A stretch of 41,934 bases of DNA from IMG/VR virus record IMGVR_UViG_2541047821_000007; one strand, written 5' to 3'. Made by a program: the position numbers and the translations under genes. Shown in pieces: positions 7,529 through 40,751 of this stretch. The notes below the pieces were generated by a model that saw only the letters and a program-made list of their open reading frames with translations, searched no databases and was not told the origin of the DNA. The stretch comes from a virus. Taxonomy: Duplodnaviria; Heunggongvirae; Uroviricota; Caudoviricetes. The stretch's first letter is position 1, and each line of letters starts with the position of its first letter.

Positions 7529-10930
<3,402 letters not shown>

Positions 10931-10987
10931 TCACGCTCCATAAACGATAAAACCGCCCGGAGGCGGTTTCACATAAAACATTTTGCA

Positions 10988-11635
10988 TCAGCGACCAATC
11001 ACCACAACCTGACCACCATCCCCTTCGTCTGCCGTGCTGATCTCCTGAGAAACCACACGTGACCCCACGCGCATTTCACCGTACAGAACAGGCAGAACAT
11101 TGCCCTGGGCAACCATGTTATCCAGTGAGGAGAAATAGGTGTTCTGTTTGCCGTTATCTGTACTGGCTGCCGTGGGCGTCCTGGCTTTCGGTGCCAGCAT
11201 CTGCGCCACTCCGCCCAGGATCATACTGGCCCCTGCCGCATACATGCCCGATACAGCCGCGGCCCCCAGCCAGCCCACAGGGTTCCACCATGCCACCGCA
11301 ATCAGCGCCGCCCCAAGCACCACCTGAAACACACCGCCACTTTTAGCTCCCGCCAGACGCGGCACGATGTGGATCACGGCACCATTTGCCAGCGGCTCAT
11401 TAAGACGGGCAGATAATTCATTTTCGCCTGCATCACGCCCGGCAATGCGCACCTGATACCAGCCCTCATTCAGTTTCTGACGAAACACCGGGAGCTGTGT
11501 GGCCAGTGCCCGGATGGCTTCAGCCCCCGTTTTCACACGAAGGTCGATACGGCGACCAAATCGTTGCAAATCCCCGTAAAGGCAGATGCGTGCCATGCCC
11601 GGTGACGCCAGAGGGAGTGTGTGCGTCGCTGCCAT
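10988..11635 (-). CDS. I: tail assembly protein I
   Basis: 215 aa, MAATHTLPLASPGMARICLYGDLQRFGRRIDLRV...; C-terminus SRVVSQEISTADEGDGGQVVVIGR; start overlaps K by ~100 bp. Confidence 0.85.
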   Translation of the reverse strand: MAATHTLPLASPGMARICLYGDLQRFGRRIDLRVKTGAEAIRALATQLPVFRQKLNEGWYQVRIAGRDAGENELSARLNEPLANGAVIHIVPRLAGAKSGGVFQVVLGAALIAVAWWNPVGWLGAAAVSGMYAAGASMILGGVAQMLAPKARTPTAASTDNGKQNTYFSSLDNMVAQGNVLPVLYGEMRVGSRVVSQEISTADEGDGGQVVVIGR

Positions 11636-34990: not shown

Positions 34991-35146
34991 TTACTCCTCA
35001 GGTTCGTAAGCTGTGAAGACAGCGACCTCCGTCTGGCCGGTTCGGATTCGTACCTCGCAGAGGTCTTTCCTCGTTACCAGTGCCGTCACTATGACGGTTA
35101 AACAGATGACGATCAGGGCGATTAACATCGCCTTTTGCTGCTTCAT
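34991..35146 (-). CDS. hokD: Hok-family type I toxin
   Basis: 51 aa: MKQQKAMLIALIVICLTVIVTALVTRKDLCEVRIRTGQTEVAVFTAYEPEE; GGAG 9 nt upstream. Confidence 0.85.
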   Translation of the reverse strand: MKQQKAMLIALIVICLTVIVTALVTRKDLCEVRIRTGQTEVAVFTAYEPEE

Positions 35147-35361
35147 AGCCTGCTTCTCCTTGCCTTTCGGCTCGTAAGAGGCTAACCTACATGTGTCTAG
35201 CATGAAATTGGCCTCAGATTAATGTTAAGCGTCTTGCAGGACGCGTAATGTTAACTGGGGCTTTTCTCTATCTGCCTTTGGTGTTCATGCCCGAGGCAGA
35301 TAGCCTCAAGCACCCGCAGCCATTCTACTTAACTACCGTTACCTCGCCAATATGAAATCAG

Positions 35362-35565: not shown

Positions 35566-35879
35566 CCACTAGTCACCACCAGCACTTCTTTTAATACGCA
35601 AAGTCCGACACAAGCTAACCTTCTAGTCCGCTTTGAGCGAAAAACAGCCATAATTTAGTGCCACGTATATAATGATAGAGCTATTCAAGCTAGCAATTCA
35701 CATGTAAAAATTCAGAGGGTAGAAGCACATAGTTATAAATGTTGGCTCCATCGACAAATTGCGGTCTCAAGTACATTTATTAATGTTGCCCCCGCATTAA
35801 CAAATCATCAAGGTGACGACATGGGGTGATGCTGCCAACTTACTGATTTAGTGTATGATGGTGTTTTTGAGGTGCTCCA

Positions 35880-36155
35880 GTGGCTTCTGTTTCTATCAGC
35901 TGTCCCTCCTGTTCAGCTACTGACGGGGTGGTGCGTAACGGCAAAAGCACCGCCGGACATCAGCGCTATCTCTGCTCTCACTGCCGTAAAACATGGCAAC
36001 TGCAGTTCACTTACACCGCTTCTCAACCCGGTACGCACCAGAAAATCATTGATATGGCCATGAATGGCGTTGGATGCCGGGCAACCGCCCGCATTATGGG
36101 CGTTGGCCTCAACACGATTTTCCGCCATTTAAAAAACTCAGGCCGCAGTCGGTAA
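35880..36155 (+). CDS. insA: IS1 InsA
   Basis: 91 aa, [46 protein letters not shown]... Confidence 0.95.
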
Positions 36156-36577
36156 CCTCGCGCATACAGCCGGGCAGTGACGTCATCGTCTGCGCGGAAA
36201 TGGACGAACAGTGGGGATACGTCGGGGCTAAATCGCGCCAGCGCTGGCTGTTTTACGCGTATGACAGGCTCCGGAAGACGGTTGTTGCGCACGTATTCGG
36301 TGAACGCACTATGGCGACGCTGGGGCGTCTTATGAGCCTGCTGTCACCCTTTGACGTGGTGATATGGATGACGGATGGCTGGCCGCTGTATGAATCCCGC
36401 CTGAAGGGAAAGCTGCACGTAATCAGCAAGCGATATACGCAGCGAATTGAGCGGCATAACCTGAATCTGAGGCAGCACCTGGCACGGCTGGGACGGAAGT
36501 CGCTGTCGTTCTCAAAATCGGTGGAGCTGCATGACAAAGTCATCGGGCATTATCTGAACATAAAACACTATCAATAA
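36074..36577 (+). CDS. insB: IS1 InsB (made as InsAB' by -1 frameshift at the A6C motif)
   Basis: 167-aa ORF overlapping insA; slippery TTAAAAAACTC at ~36124-36135. Confidence 0.9.
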
Positions 36578-36596
36578 GTTGGAGTCATTACCCGAC

Positions 36597-38384
36597 ATGG
36601 ACGATATTAATATCAGCCTCGACGAACTTAACACTATTGATTTATCCCCCTTAATCCAGAGTAAGCTGCCAGTTACCTGCTTTGATATCACAAAGTATCT
36701 TTCTAGCCTAGGTGATGGAAGAGCGGAGATAAGACTGCTAACCCATATTTGCGGTTTTCACTTTCGTCCCGAAAATCCACAGGTACCATTTGGTCCGTGC
36801 TTTCAAAGCAGCCAAGGTAGATCTGCAATTCCGGATGACATTAACGGGTTGTCGCTGGAGGTACTTTCTCAATTTTGCCCGACGATAGAGCTACCCGAAC
36901 TTCAAGCTCGTATTGCTGATACACTTTGGGTTCGTAAAATTGGTGGAATCCGTTTTCCTTTGCTGGCAGTCCGTGCTTATTATGCGTCCAGTATAGCTAT
37001 TATGACATCGCAAGGGACGTGGGTTAGTGCTTTAGAACGCCTAGAGCGTGCGCTTAGGCTGTGTTGTTTTTTTCGAAAGAATACTGATTTCAGGGATGAA
37101 TTTGATCAGCTTTCGGCACATCTACTAGCAGAGTATGAACGTACCAGAGAACAAGGCGATTCACCTTATCCGCTGCGACTCCTGCAACTCGATATCGACT
37201 GTAAAGTGAGTGAGCCATCTTTTATTGCCCAGGAACTCCTGTTTCTGACAAAAAACTATCTGGCTCAAAAATTATTTTCATTTGCCGTCGATGCCTGTAA
37301 AACCGCAATCACGATTGCGAATAGGTGCTGTGACAGAGATACACAGTTTGAATTCTGGCGGCTTCTTGCCGATACACATCTGGAAGAGTCAAAATTCCAA
37401 GATGGCGGTATGATTTCGGCAGCCTGCATGCAGAATGCTATTGAAGCACTGGCTAATATTCCAGGAACCCGAATAGAACGTCTTGCGCTGTATGAAGAAA
37501 TGCGTGATTACCAAATCGAATCCCGTCACCAGATGTCTATCCTTCAGTCTCCCCCTCAAGATATTAGTGAGATTGTCCATCAAGCCAAGAGTCGGGTAGT
37601 CGGAAGAGATATGTTTGATATGGTTTTCAGACTTGCGATGCTGGTCTGTCGGCCAACCAGCATTGAGAGACTTAAGGCTCAAGCAATAGAACAAAAGGCC
37701 AACAGCATAGCTTGGATGTTTGGATCAACACATATTGATCATGAGGGAATGACACTTGCTCGCATACCCGCAGGATTGGGGATTGATGATGCAAATGGGG
37801 CAGTTATTTGGCCCATAATGATGACGAGAATGCGTATCGACCATGAGTTGGCAGTAGCTGGGCAAATTATTCCTGCTACAGATGAGATCACAATGAAATA
37901 TCCAATCTCGGAGGCGTTTTTTCGCGATATGTTCATCAATCATCCCTTCATCCCGTTTGGGCATGAAGAGTTTTTCATCAAGGGTATGGTTTGCGGTTTC
38001 AATGGAGATTTTATGACGGCATGCCACGTGTTGATTCCCCAGATCGAAAATAGTCTGAGATATGTGGCTAAAATTAAAGGTGAGGAACCATCGCAGCTTC
38101 ACGGGGACGGTTCGCAAGAGCGAAATGGACTCAAGGGATTACTAGATAATCCACTGATTATTGAAGCTTTCGGCGTAGACATAATTGGCAATCTTCAGGC
38201 CTTACTGGTAGATAAAATCTATGGTGATTTACGAAATCAACTAGCTCACGGATATGTGCCTGCCGGTTACTACAATCAACCTCCCTGCATTTTTGCATGG
38301 TGGCTTGTATTGCACATTCTAATGAACCCTACGGCGAGATACTGGCAAGCCACTTATGGCCAAGAGAGTGAGGCTCAGACTTAA
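36597..38384 (+). CDS. 595-aa protein of unknown function with C-terminal HEPN-like R-x4-H motif; candidate abortive-infection/defence protein
   Basis: ATG 36597 lies inside the IS1 target duplication (track start is a TTG inside IS1); LRNQLAHG at 38232-38249; mostly helical composition, no Walker A; opposite strand to the early operon. Confidence 0.6.
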   Translation: MDDINISLDELNTIDLSPLIQSKLPVTCFDITKYLSSLGDGRAEIRLLTHICGFHFRPENPQVPFGPCFQSSQGRSAIPDDINGLSLEVLSQFCPTIELPELQARIADTLWVRKIGGIRFPLLAVRAYYASSIAIMTSQGTWVSALERLERALRLCCFFRKNTDFRDEFDQLSAHLLAEYERTREQGDSPYPLRLLQLDIDCKVSEPSFIAQELLFLTKNYLAQKLFSFAVDACKTAITIANRCCDRDTQFEFWRLLADTHLEESKFQDGGMISAACMQNAIEALANIPGTRIERLALYEEMRDYQIESRHQMSILQSPPQDISEIVHQAKSRVVGRDMFDMVFRLAMLVCRPTSIERLKAQAIEQKANSIAWMFGSTHIDHEGMTLARIPAGLGIDDANGAVIWPIMMTRMRIDHELAVAGQIIPATDEITMKYPISEAFFRDMFINHPFIPFGHEEFFIKGMVCGFNGDFMTACHVLIPQIENSLRYVAKIKGEEPSQLHGDGSQERNGLKGLLDNPLIIEAFGVDIIGNLQALLVDKIYGDLRNQLAHGYVPAGYYNQPPCIFAWWLVLHILMNPTARYWQATYGQESEAQT

Positions 38385-38602
38385 AGTGAATAAGTTTACG
38401 AAGTTGGCACTTCCGGATGCATGTCCATATGAGTTGAGGCGATTTGGTTAATAAGGTTGAGTGCTGCTGAAATTATTCGATGTCCGCTTTTGGCACAAAG
38501 CGGACAACCACGCCAGATCTACCCTGTGCCATGAAAAATGAGAATGTCAATTCACTCCTGAACTAATGCTTTTTAATCTAGTAACGTCTAAAATACCTAA
38601 CA

Positions 38603-39004
38603 TTATCCCTGATAAAATGCCAGTATGCGCTGCATAACTTCACTCATCCGGCACTCGCGACAGATTATGTTTAGGCGACTGTCGTAGCGACGTATTTCTC
38701 CATCAGGTAACGACCAGATAAGGTCCGGATCAACCACAGCTGTTTTCTTCACCTTTGCCCTCGAGAGTTTTTTGCGGGCGTTTTGCCAGTCCTTACGCGC
38801 CTGTTCAGACGGGAATAACCCGTAGCCGGAGTTGTATACATCGCCACTGGCTACCAGCTCTCTGGCAAGAACGCTCATCAGATATCTAGTCGCACCTGTT
38901 TTAGCTTCCAGTTGCCGTAACGTCTCACGACCGCTCTGGCGCACGAGTTCCACCACCTGCCCTTTAATTTTTTCCCGCTCTTCTTGTGTAAAAACTTTTG
39001 CCAC
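38603..39004 (-). CDS. hypothetical 133-aa protein downstream of the replication initiator
   Basis: Track ORF; basic central region; convergent with the 595-aa gene. Confidence 0.45.
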   Translation of the reverse strand: MAKVFTQEEREKIKGQVVELVRQSGRETLRQLEAKTGATRYLMSVLARELVASGDVYNSGYGLFPSEQARKDWQNARKKLSRAKVKKTAVVDPDLIWSLPDGEIRRYDSRLNIICRECRMSEVMQRILAFYQG

Positions 39005-39044: not shown

Positions 39045-40010
39045 TTATCCTCTGAAACCAGGCGGAATTTCTGTATCCGGTTCAGAAATATGATTAACAC
39101 AACGCTGTACAGGTGAACGCCCCAGGCGGATGACCAGTTCGTCCCATTTTTCGCGGAGCTTTGACGGGCTCATGATGTTTTTTACCCAGAATGGATCCCG
39201 CTGTACCCGACCAAACATTTCACAAATTTGTCTGTGGCTTCTGCCATCCAGCATCCGCATTGTGCGCACATCATTGGCCCAGACAGTCCAGTTAGGCTCT
39301 TTTGGTCGCATGATCTCGCCATCATCACTGGCGGCCTGTTCGTAGAGACCCACGATCCGCCCCCATATCCACTGCGCACACGCCAGATCCTCCTGGCTAC
39401 CCCACTGGCGTTTTTTCGCACTAAACACAACTGCGCCAGGGTGCCGGATTAAAAAATCCTGTTCAGCCGTCTGCGGGTCCGGTTGCGAAGCTTCCGGACG
39501 AAAAGTGTTTTTATTCTCTGTAGTAATCTCTGTTGTATTCTCTGTAGGATCATCGGGCCATTTTGACCCGATGACATTGGGTCGTTTTGAACCAATGGAG
39601 CGTTTCATTTTGACCTCTTCCATCGTGTCATTTTGACCTGATGGAGCGGCGCATTTTGAACCGATGGATTCGCTCAATTTGCCATCATCTAAAAGCTCGC
39701 TTCCATAGTTAATCGTGTAGAAATTGGTCATATCGCGCTTTGATTTATTGAGCTTTTCACAACGCAAAAGCCCCAGCGTTTTCAGACTTGCAAACGCGCG
39801 CTTTAACGTTGACTCTGACCAGAATGGGAACTGTTCCAGCCATTGTTCCGTTGTGTTGTAAATCCAGCGAACACCATCACATTCCATGCCGGAATTGGTA
39901 TCTCTCAACCAGTAATGCAACTGCTGCAACACAATGGCTTCATTTAAGCCAATCTTCATCGCAAGCTGTGTGTTTATAACCAGTGGGCGTTCAGCAAAAA
40001 GAAGGCTCAT
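39045..40010 (-). CDS. replication initiator, phage O/DnaD-like, with internal origin iterons
   Basis: N-terminus MSLLFAERPLVINTQLAMKIGLNEAIVLQQLHYW typical of phage replication proteins; iterons inside the coding region; track start 40064 is TTG, ATG at 40010. Confidence 0.7.
   Translation of the reverse strand: MSLLFAERPLVINTQLAMKIGLNEAIVLQQLHYWLRDTNSGMECDGVRWIYNTTEQWLEQFPFWSESTLKRAFASLKTLGLLRCEKLNKSKRDMTNFYTINYGSELLDDGKLSESIGSKCAAPSGQNDTMEEVKMKRSIGSKRPNVIGSKWPDDPTENTTEITTENKNTFRPEASQPDPQTAEQDFLIRHPGAVVFSAKKRQWGSQEDLACAQWIWGRIVGLYEQAASDDGEIMRPKEPNWTVWANDVRTMRMLDGRSHRQICEMFGRVQRDPFWVKNIMSPSKLREKWDELVIRLGRSPVQRCVNHISEPDTEIPPGFRG
39559..39672. repeat. five iterons, consensus CATTTTGA(A/C)C(C/T)GATGG, 22-24 bp period (candidate ori)
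   Basis: Copies at 39560, 39584, 39608, 39630, 39653; encode repeated (S)IGSK in the protein; three TCTCTGT(A/T)G repeats at ~39514-39546. Confidence 0.7.
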
Positions 40011-40512
40011 AATTCCATCCAGCTTTTTGTTGGTATTGCTGTCGATACGCAAGTTTGAAAGCAATTGCTTTTTCTATAAGTTCGTCAGTTTCACGATCCA
40101 CTACGGCAGGATCAGCAAAAAGCAGTCCGGACTCCACCACATCGCCATATTCTTTGTTTAACCCGGCGATCATGTACGTGATGCTTTTTCCGTCACTAAT
40201 TTCACGATACAACCTGAAATCATTAATCCGGATAGCCTCCATAATTGCAGGCACTAGCGCCGTGAACTTTTCACGCTTATCCCTGGTGTCGATAGCCTTC
40301 CAGCGTTCGAATATCTTCACTCGATTAACGCCAAGCGCTCGCTGATCAACCGCGCCACCTTCATCTGTGACACGCTGAACATCGATGTTCGGGCGCTCTT
40401 TCAAAGCCCAGAATGCTTCAGTGATTAATATCGTCGCCTGCTCCTGTGTCATTCCTGGTCGACATATCCAGGCATCCAGAGCCTCACGAGCCTGTTCAGG
40501 AGTGATTTTCAT
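39991..40512 (-). CDS. YdaT-like early protein
   Basis: 173 aa; KIFERW...ALVPAI pattern resembles Rac YdaT; follows the Cro-like gene. Confidence 0.5.
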   Translation of the reverse strand: MKITPEQAREALDAWICRPGMTQEQATILITEAFWALKERPNIDVQRVTDEGGAVDQRALGVNRVKIFERWKAIDTRDKREKFTALVPAIMEAIRINDFRLYREISDGKSITYMIAGLNKEYGDVVESGLLFADPAVVDRETDELIEKAIAFKLAYRQQYQQKAGWNYEPSFC

Positions 40513-40723
40513 TGTTCAACCGCCCCGCCCGCTTCGTCTTACGATATTCGTCATAAACCTTGGGATCATACAGAAGCTCGCCGCCAGATGCCTCCTGTAG
40601 ACGCATCGCGCGACCTTCAGGAACCAGCTCTTGCCATTGAGAAACAGCAGATGGGTCAACGCCAGCAGCTTTCGCTACTTTGGCTTTCGTACCGTAAAAA
40701 TTAATTACGTCTGATTTAAACAT
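40496..40723 (-). CDS. dicC: DicC/YdaS-like Cro-type regulator
   Basis: ~75 aa from ATG 40723 (GGAGGTG SD); divergent from the repressor. Confidence 0.7.
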   Translation of the reverse strand: MFKSDVINFYGTKAKVAKAAGVDPSAVSQWQELVPEGRAMRLQEASGGELLYDPKVYDEYRKTKRAGRLNNENHS

Positions 40724-40735
40724 CGCACCTCCAGT

Positions 40736-40751
40736 ATTGAGTTTTCTCAAT
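40736..40751. promoter_or_regulatory. operator-like inverted repeat in the dicC-dicA intergenic region
   Basis: ATTGAG-TTTT-CTCAAT; the 11-mer AGTTTTCTCA(T) recurs at 41273-41285 and inverted at 41309-41319. Confidence 0.5.

What the first reader, a model, noticed from the sequence alone, without database searches (positions are those of the whole stretch)
36597..38384. Large orphan protein with C-terminal HEPN-type R-x4-H motif: candidate new defence gene
A 595-aa ORF with no identity I can assign sits between the replication module and the hok/Q region, on the strand opposite to the early operon; this is the classic position and orientation of lysogen-expressed anti-phage cargo. Its C-terminus carries LRNQLAHG (R552-x4-H557 in track numbering, DNA 38232-38249), the signature of HEPN RNase domains; a weaker RMRIDH lies at 37827-37844. 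It is absent from the K-12 Qin layout as I recall it, where relBE/flxA occupy this region.
Basis: partly seen in the sequence, partly recalled or inferred. Interest (0 to 1): 0.8.

Follow-up and report, generated by a model that had tools for sequence, protein, structure and literature searches.

The report
Catalogued prophage HEPN gene, IS1-hit
The 595-residue gene is real and does end in a conserved HEPN RNase-type domain, but it is not an orphan: it belongs to a large, already catalogued and still untested family of candidate anti-phage genes, and in this copy an IS1 element has cut it off from its promoter.

The parts
36597..38384 (+). CDS of 595 aa plus stop; identical to RefSeq WP_000340970.1 (annotated as DUF4209- or DUF7380-domain-containing protein)
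36606..37094 (+). DUF7380 domain (aa 4-166): N-terminal cap plus the first helical repeats; carries the conserved motifs PELxARxAD and ERALRL
   Evidence: Pfam PF24098, E 2.1e-34; conserved columns A104 R105 D108 Y128 R151 A152 L153 L155
36846..37535 (+). TPR-like alpha-helical solenoid (aa ~84-313), the presumed sensor or interaction module
37959..38381 (+). C-terminal HEPN-fold domain (aa ~455-595); the Pfam DUF4209 match covers aa 484-573 (nt 38046-38315)
38037..38060 (+). PQIENSLR helix motif (aa 481-488); Q482, E484, S486 and R488 are invariant; probably the polar partner of the HEPN active site
   Evidence: used as the search pattern that retrieved 157 relatives in GTDB genomes
38232..38249 (+). 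RNQLAH = R546-x4-H551, the HEPN catalytic signature; invariant R, H and G552, near-invariant N547
37827..37844 (+). RMRIDH (aa 411-416): a chance R-x4-H; R411 is not conserved, and the stretch sits in a long helix before the HEPN domain
35825..36592 (+). IS1 (768 bp; insA 35880-36155, insB frame 36074-36577), in the same orientation as the gene and inserted at its start codon
   Evidence: absent from the otherwise 100% identical locus in 144 complete genomes
35817..35824 (+). Left copy of the 8-bp target duplication CGACATGG. With the native SD AAGGTGA (35810-35816), the old start now reads ATG-GGG-TGA, a 2-codon stub
36593..36600 (+). Right copy of the target duplication CGACATGG, which supplies the ATG of the intact CDS. 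The nearest SD-like GGAG (36581-36584) lies in the IS1 end, 12 nt upstream
35648..35816 (+). Native 5' region specific to this gene cassette. Homology with other Qin-like arrangements ends at about 35640-35647. It presumably holds the native promoter, which is now 768 bp further from the CDS
   Evidence: no sigma-70 site beyond chance in the scan

Best explanation
The ORF is an intact copy of a widespread single-gene family with three parts: DUF7380, a TPR-like solenoid, and a DUF4209/HEPN domain. The family is the bacterial branch of the 'C6orf70' HEPN family and is PADLOC candidate PDC-S39. Here it is carried as opposite-strand cargo in the variable nin-region slot of a Qin-like lambdoid prophage.

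Shown:
- Family membership and domain layout.
- A HEPN-like C-terminal fold.
- Invariance of R546 and H551, and of Q482, E484, S486 and R488.
- Occurrence of relatives in prophage cargo sites, in the P2 old/tin hotspot, inside a type I R-M operon, and next to other defence genes.

Inferred mechanism:
- The protein is a latent, metal-independent HEPN endoribonuclease.
- The N-terminal DUF7380/TPR module holds it inactive until it binds a trigger, probably a protein of an infecting phage.
- Activation probably works by dimerisation, which juxtaposes two R-x4-H motifs as in other HEPN RNases.
- The active enzyme cleaves cellular or phage RNA (target unknown; tRNA or mRNA) and aborts the infection.

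Specific to this window: IS1 inserted exactly at the start codon. This separates the CDS from its native Shine-Dalgarno sequence and promoter, so this copy is probably silent or weakly expressed. Any expression would depend on read-through from IS1 and a poorly spaced GGAG.
For: - Family matches: Pfam DUF7380 E 2e-34 and DUF4209 34 bits against a cutoff of 22.3; PADLOC PDC-S39 E 8.4e-103 over aa 43-581.
- Identical annotated protein in 152 of 5426 complete E. coli genomes.
- 7193 cluster representatives at E <= 1e-3 and 2725 at E <= 1e-30; the 150 best listed are all ~550-670 aa and match nearly full length.
- Invariant R546, H551, G552, Q482, E484, S486 and R488 across 35 sequences down to 25% identity.
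- DUF4209 is classed as a predicted active HEPN family that 'occurs in R-M related operons' (PMC3710099).
- TPR-like middle region.
- Contexts of relatives: between Q and the holin in an Enterobacter prophage; at the edge of a Citrobacter prophage; beside CBASS and transposases in Oleispira; between gpA and gpQ of P2-like phages; HsdM-HsdS-[gene]-HsdR in L044. Neighbour ORFs hit type I R-M, MADS, Hma, PD-T4-6 and other PADLOC models.
- The slot next to hokD is variable: relBE in K-12, other cargo elsewhere.
- IS1 and its target duplication.
Against: - No experiment exists for this family. The 145 PDC systems are explicitly untested (bioRxiv 10.1101/2024.01.29.577857).
- The only tested relative is the P2-hotspot 'Putative HEPN' pFR103. 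Tested from its native promoter, it gave no protection against eight coliphages (PMC9122126 Table S2B). A sister P2-hotspot protein (ORF612) is 21% identical to the window protein over its full length.
- Foldseek against the PDB gave nothing significant. The top hit was a HEPN protein, but at E 1.9.
- Many homologues sit among housekeeping genes or at a position conserved within a genus (V. cholerae, Nostoc). That fits a non-defence role equally well.
- No promoter was identified.
- Dimerisation, trigger and RNA target are pure inference.
Confidence: 0.55

Rival explanations
1. It is a HEPN RNase or RNA-binding protein with a host or prophage physiological role rather than a phage-triggered defence. 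Examples would be stress-induced RNA decay, a toxin-like addiction or stabilisation module, or RNA quality control as proposed for eukaryotic ERMARD/C6orf70.
For: - The tested P2-hotspot relative gave no phage protection.
- V. cholerae copies lie between tauE and carAB. Nostoc copies keep the same neighbours across many genomes.
- A large subfamily is translationally coupled to a PIN toxin gene and carries an antitoxin-like tail, which is toxin-antitoxin logic.
- In K-12 the same prophage slot holds relBE.
Against: - Patchy distribution (2.8% of E. coli genomes).
- Location in prophage cargo sites, in the P2 defence hotspot, and inside a type I R-M operon.
- An eight-phage panel is too small for the negative result to be informative.
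- The E. coli gene has no antitoxin-like partner.
Confidence: 0.25
2. It serves the prophage's own lytic or competitive programme. It might degrade host RNA or counter host defences, or exclude superinfecting phage through a direct rather than abortive mechanism. In that case it is not a host-protective suicide nuclease.
For: - It is carried by phages: PHROGs 5183 and 31613 and P2-like phages.
- It sits next to a Ren-like exclusion gene.
Against: - It is transcribed opposite to the early operon, with its own upstream region.
- Most of the related loci examined are chromosomal and outside recognisable phages.
Confidence: 0.1
3. In this genome it is simply a dead or dying passenger. The prophage is decaying and the IS1 hit has inactivated the gene, so it has no current function here.
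For: - IS1 sits at the start codon.
- Other genomes show independent IS4, IS3 and ISEc23 insertions inside the gene.
Against: - The CDS is intact and 100% identical to the common allele, so the insertion is recent.
- Same-direction read-through from IS1 could still give some expression.
- This concerns only this copy's expression and does not explain what the family does.
Confidence: 0.1

Closest known systems
Pfam DUF4209 (PF13910) / 'C6orf70' (ERMARD) HEPN family of Anantharaman et al. 2013, with DUF7380 (PF24098)
   Same: Direct profile matches. The R-N-x3-H signature is conserved, and the fusion to TPR-like repeats matches the 2013 note 'Fused to TPR'. Bacterial members were reported in R-M related operons, which is reproduced here in L044.
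   Different: Eukaryotic ERMARD is an ER-membrane protein with transmembrane segments. The E. coli protein has only a 13-residue hydrophobic run, and that run forms the last HEPN helix in the model. No member has been characterised biochemically.
PADLOC phage defence candidate PDC-S39 (Payne et al. 2024, 'guilt-by-embedding')
   Same: Near full-length HMM match (E 8e-103). It is a single-gene system.
   Different: PDC-S39 is an untested candidate, not a validated system. Here the gene is in a lambdoid prophage slot, not embedded in R-M, BREX, DISARM or Hma.
P2 old/tin hotspot 'DUF4209 / Putative HEPN' proteins (Rousset et al. 2022, systems 13 and 55; P2-EC46 ORF612)
   Same: Same length and architecture. 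ORF612 (system 55) aligns over the full length (21% identity, E 2e-22). The PQxE..R and R-x4-H motifs are conserved, and the gene is likewise prophage cargo.
   Different: Very divergent paralogues in a different phage family and locus. System 13 (pFR103) showed no activity against eight phages.
Single-protein or toxin-type HEPN RNases in phage defence (ApeA, PrrC/RloC anticodon nucleases, RnlA/LsoA, AbiD/F, HEPN-MNT toxins, HEC-08)
   Different: There is no sequence-profile match to any of them (PADLOC returned only PDC-S39). There is no ABC ATPase, MNT or antitoxin partner. The DUF7380 plus TPR N-terminus is different.

Membership tests
DUF4209 / C6orf70-type HEPN family | Profile match to PF13910 above the curated cutoff | tested here: met
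   34.0 bits against a cutoff of 22.3, aa 484-573. Precomputed PF13910 is recorded on most homologues.
DUF4209 / C6orf70-type HEPN family | Conserved R-x4-6-H catalytic motif | tested here: met
   R546 and H551 are invariant and N547 near-invariant in 35 sequences and in the 22-sequence C-terminal alignment.
DUF4209 / C6orf70-type HEPN family | HEPN alpha-helical bundle fold | tested here: inconclusive
DUF4209 / C6orf70-type HEPN family | Endoribonuclease activity | not testable with these tools
   No biochemical data were found for any member.
PADLOC PDC-S39 (candidate defence system) | Match to the PDC-S39 HMMs as a single-gene system | tested here: met
   PDLC05012 E 8.4e-103 and PDLC05011 E 2.6e-102. 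No conserved partner gene was seen in the gammaproteobacterial loci examined.
PADLOC PDC-S39 (candidate defence system) | Demonstrated anti-phage activity | not testable with these tools
   The 145 PDCs are described as untested. A distant P2-hotspot relative was negative on eight phages.
HEPN-MNT and RnlA/LsoA type toxin-antitoxin systems | Adjacent cognate antitoxin gene (MNT nucleotidyltransferase, RnlB/LsoB) | tested here: not met
   The neighbours are IS1 and hok/sok upstream and a convergent Ren-like gene downstream. There are no profile hits to these families.
Known HEPN Abi/defence families (ApeA, AbiD/F, AbiJ, AbiU2, AbiV, PrrC, RloC) | Profile match to the family model | tested here: not met
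   A PADLOC scan at E <= 1 returned only PDC-S39. Pfam returned only DUF7380 and DUF4209, plus a sub-threshold MreB hit. NCBIfam returned nothing.

The most novel reading that the evidence does not exclude
DUF7380-TPR-HEPN proteins (more than 7000 sequence clusters) could be a major unrecognised class of single-protein, trigger-gated abortive-infection RNases. Their DUF7380/TPR scaffold could be a reusable sensor. In gammaproteobacterial prophages it would gate its own HEPN domain. In cyanobacteria the same scaffold carries a fused antitoxin-like tail and is translationally coupled to a PIN toxin gene. That would mean one sensor wired to two different RNase effectors.
Probability: 0.3. Interest if true: 0.55.

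Novelty: already known. Interest (0 to 1): 0.28.

Why it matters
If the family were shown to be an anti-phage RNase, a computational candidate (PDC-S39) would become a validated, very widespread single-gene defence system. An easy model is available, because an intact allele is present in E. coli ATCC 25922. It would also give a function to the bacterial relatives of human ERMARD. For this window, the practical points are as follows:
- The gene is already catalogued.
- Its HEPN nature was predicted in 2013.
- This particular copy is probably switched off by IS1.

Tried and rejected
- Sequence search of PDB chains: no relative.
- NCBIfam: no hit.
- Foldseek against the PDB on the C-terminal model: nothing significant. 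The AFDB library was unavailable.
- Literature searches for DUF7380, WP_000340970, ERMARD plus HEPN, HEPN-TPR and PF24098: nothing.
- PDC-S39 appears only in inventories. It was not found in the held supplements of the Payne preprint.
- Promoter and terminator scan: no sites beyond chance.
- 'DUF7380-only' annotations looked at first like truncated alleles. They are the same intact protein under a newer name, so IS or frameshift disruption is rare (3 of 152 genomes) and is not evidence of counter-selection.
- The RMRIDH motif was rejected as a chance occurrence.
- The idea of a transmembrane C-terminus was considered because Phobius predicted '1 TM' for the P2 relatives in Rousset Table S5B. 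It is judged unlikely: the hydrophobic run is 13 residues and is modelled with high confidence as the last HEPN helix. This was not tested further.

Full report
**Observation**

The window contains an ORF at 36579-38384 (+). It is 601 aa from a TTG, or 595 aa from the ATG at 36597. RNQLAH (R546-x4-H551, numbered from the ATG) maps to nt 38232-38249, and RMRIDH to 37827-37844.

The gene is convergent with the early-right operon on the minus strand:
- cro/dicC-like, 40496-40750
- cII-like / YdaT family, 39991-40512
- O-like replication initiator, 39045-40064
- Ren-like DUF977, 38603-39004

An R-x4-H motif alone is not informative. Shuffles of this protein contain 0.90 such motifs on average.

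**The gene is not an orphan**

- Pfam gives DUF7380 (aa 4-166, E 2e-34) and DUF4209 (aa 484-573, 34 bits against a cutoff of 22.3).
- PADLOC gives PDC-S39 at E 8e-103 over nearly the whole length.
- The protein is identical to RefSeq WP_000340970.1, annotated as a DUF4209- or DUF7380-domain-containing protein. It is found in 152 of 5426 complete E. coli genomes, including ATCC 25922, always in this Qin-like prophage context.
- A word-indexed search found about 150 relatives in Enterobacterales, Vibrio, Shewanella, Pseudomonas and cyanobacteria, nearly all ~600 aa with both domains.
- A profile search of 1.84 billion cluster representatives found 7193 hits at E <= 1e-3 and 2725 at E <= 1e-30. 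The 150 best listed are ~550-670 aa and match nearly full length.

**HEPN assignment**

Anantharaman et al. 2013 (PMC3710099) placed DUF4209 in the HEPN superfamily as the 'C6orf70' family. They predicted it to be catalytically active, noted fusion to TPR, and noted that bacterial members occur in R-M related operons.

In my alignment of 35 homologues (25-81% identity to the query), the invariant columns include R546, H551 and G552, and the helix motif Q482, E484, S486 and R488. N547 is near-invariant. R411 of RMRIDH is not conserved.

- Las1, LsoA, RnlA and MtlR lower down

Foldseek against the PDB gave nothing significant. Its best hit was also a HEPN protein, at E 1.9. I take the HEPN fold as well supported but not proven.

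**Context and defence association**

The slot between the Ren-like gene and hokD is variable among E. coli Qin-like prophages:
- relBE, ydfV and flxA in K-12
- queH plus a methyltransferase fragment in REL606
- a 340-aa hypothetical protein in strain 1428
- nin-like small genes in A1.S1.18

Homology with those arrangements ends about 180 bp upstream of the ATG. The gene therefore comes as a cassette with its own 5' region.

Relatives elsewhere are found in these places:
- between Q and the holin of an Enterobacter prophage
- at the edge of a Citrobacter prophage
- between transposases near CBASS in Oleispira
- in housekeeping neighbourhoods in V. cholerae and Pseudomonas
- as 21-24% identical, full-length paralogues between gpA and gpQ of P2-like phages, which is the old/tin hotspot
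- in a Nitrospirae MAG as HsdM-HsdS-[family gene]-small ORF-HsdR (L044), reproducing the 'embedded in R-M' pattern

Among 179 neighbour ORFs from 47 de-replicated loci, PADLOC hits included type I R-M subunits, MADS, HmaC, PD-T4-6, QatC, GajA and other PDCs. I did not run a matched control, so this is qualitative.

**What is known experimentally**

Nothing was found for this family.
- PDC systems come from 'guilt-by-embedding', and the 145 candidates are stated to be untested (bioRxiv 10.1101/2024.01.29.577857).
- Rousset et al. 2022 list two DUF4209 systems in the P2 hotspot (193 and 76 occurrences). They cloned one as pFR103 'Putative HEPN' with its native promoter. It appears in Table S2B, the additional tested systems not among the validated ones, so no defence against their eight phages was reported.
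- Other papers only list PDC-S39 in inventories.

**IS1**

It ends 4 nt before the ATG and is flanked by an 8-bp direct repeat, CGACATGG (35817-35824 and 36593-36600).

Alignment with the uninterrupted locus of strain 118UI shows the native sequence AAGGTGA-CGAC-ATG-GAC. IS1 therefore inserted inside the start codon region. The consequences are:
- The native SD and ATG now open a two-codon stub (ATG GGG TGA).
- The intact CDS keeps a duplicated ATG, but its nearest SD-like sequence is a GGAG in the IS1 end, 12 nt away.
- The native upstream region is displaced by 768 bp.

No complete E. coli genome in the collection has this insertion. Three have other IS elements inside the gene: IS4, IS3 and ISEc23. 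I infer reduced or absent expression in this strain. This is not shown.

**Mechanism (inferred)**

I propose a latent HEPN endoribonuclease whose DUF7380/TPR module senses a trigger. Activation, probably by dimerisation that pairs two R-x4-H motifs as in other HEPN RNases, would lead to RNA cleavage and abortive infection or exclusion.

Rival explanations:
- a non-defence physiological or toxin-like RNase
- a role in the phage's own programme
- a silenced passenger

**Side observation**

About 25 of the 80 GTDB loci share an extra feature. Most are cyanobacterial, and one is from Chthoniobacterales. They encode family members with a ~40-aa C-terminal extension (SDPWVKFAGMFKDDPLFDEFVEDM..YRRELD). 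Each is followed by a 140-146 aa ORF whose start overlaps the stop by 4 nt. Eight of the ten such ORFs tested are PIN-domain proteins. This looks like a VapB-like tail fused to the HEPN protein with a VapC-like toxin. It places the family in toxin/conflict-system territory.

**Verdict**

The feature is real and the HEPN reading is correct. The gene is already catalogued: it is RefSeq-annotated, it belongs to a 2013 HEPN family, and it is a PADLOC candidate. Its defence role is plausible but untested, and one distant relative was negative. This copy is probably disabled by IS1. Novelty and interest are low.

Noticed in passing
window 35825-36592 (IS1), with repeats at 35817-35824 and 36593-36600: IS1 inserted exactly at the start codon of the gene, with an 8-bp target duplication CGACATGG. 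The 601-aa TTG-start ORF includes 6 codons from the IS1 end and the duplication. None of 5426 complete E. coli genomes has this insertion.
   Followed up: yes
L010, L055, L057, L058, L067, L071, L079, L093, L052 and about 15 further loci: A mostly cyanobacterial subfamily has a ~40-aa antitoxin-like C-terminal extension. It is followed by a 4-nt-overlapping 140-146 aa ORF, and 8 of 10 of these tested are PIN-domain (VapC-like) proteins. This is a possible fused-antitoxin arrangement.
   Followed up: partly
window 38603-35204 slot; L020-L024: The region between the Ren-like DUF977 gene and hokD is a variable cargo slot in Qin-like prophages. It holds relBE/ydfV/flxA in K-12, queH plus a methyltransferase fragment in REL606, a 340-aa hypothetical in strain 1428, and nin-like genes in A1.S1.18.
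   Followed up: partly
L002 (NZ_CP070048), NZ_CP045712, L019 (NZ_CM149556), L003 (NZ_CP053247): There are independent IS insertions in or next to the same gene in other E. coli genomes: IS4 and IS3 inside it, ISEc23 truncating the HEPN end at nt 1593, and IS5 just downstream. This is too few (3 of 152 inside the gene) to argue for counter-selection.
   Followed up: partly
window 34991-35315 (-): An intact hokD-type toxin gene (34991-35203) with a sok antisense RNA (Rfam RF01794, 116 bits, 35141-35315) lies directly upstream of the cassette.
   Followed up: no
window 38603-39004 (-) and 39991-40512 (-): The convergent downstream neighbour is a Ren-like exclusion protein (PHROG 142, DUF977). The cII-like gene (PHROG 163) is annotated in RefSeq as 'toxin YdaT family protein', so the two sources disagree.
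   Followed up: no
window 38482-38505: A 9-bp-stem hairpin (GTCCGCTTT-TGGCAC-AAAGCGGAC) lies in the 218-bp gap between the two convergent genes. It could be a shared terminator, but no T-run follows on the + strand and the scan did not pick it up.
   Followed up: no
L025 (JAEWTL010000124.1, 'Bacillota bacterium' MAG): A 5-kb contig of a Bacillota MAG carries a 100% identical copy of this E. coli gene. It is most likely a mis-binned Enterobacterial contig.
   Followed up: no
L074 (Armatimonadota MAG) 8001-11623: Two family genes lie in tandem. The downstream 643-aa ORF also matches PDC-S39.
   Followed up: no
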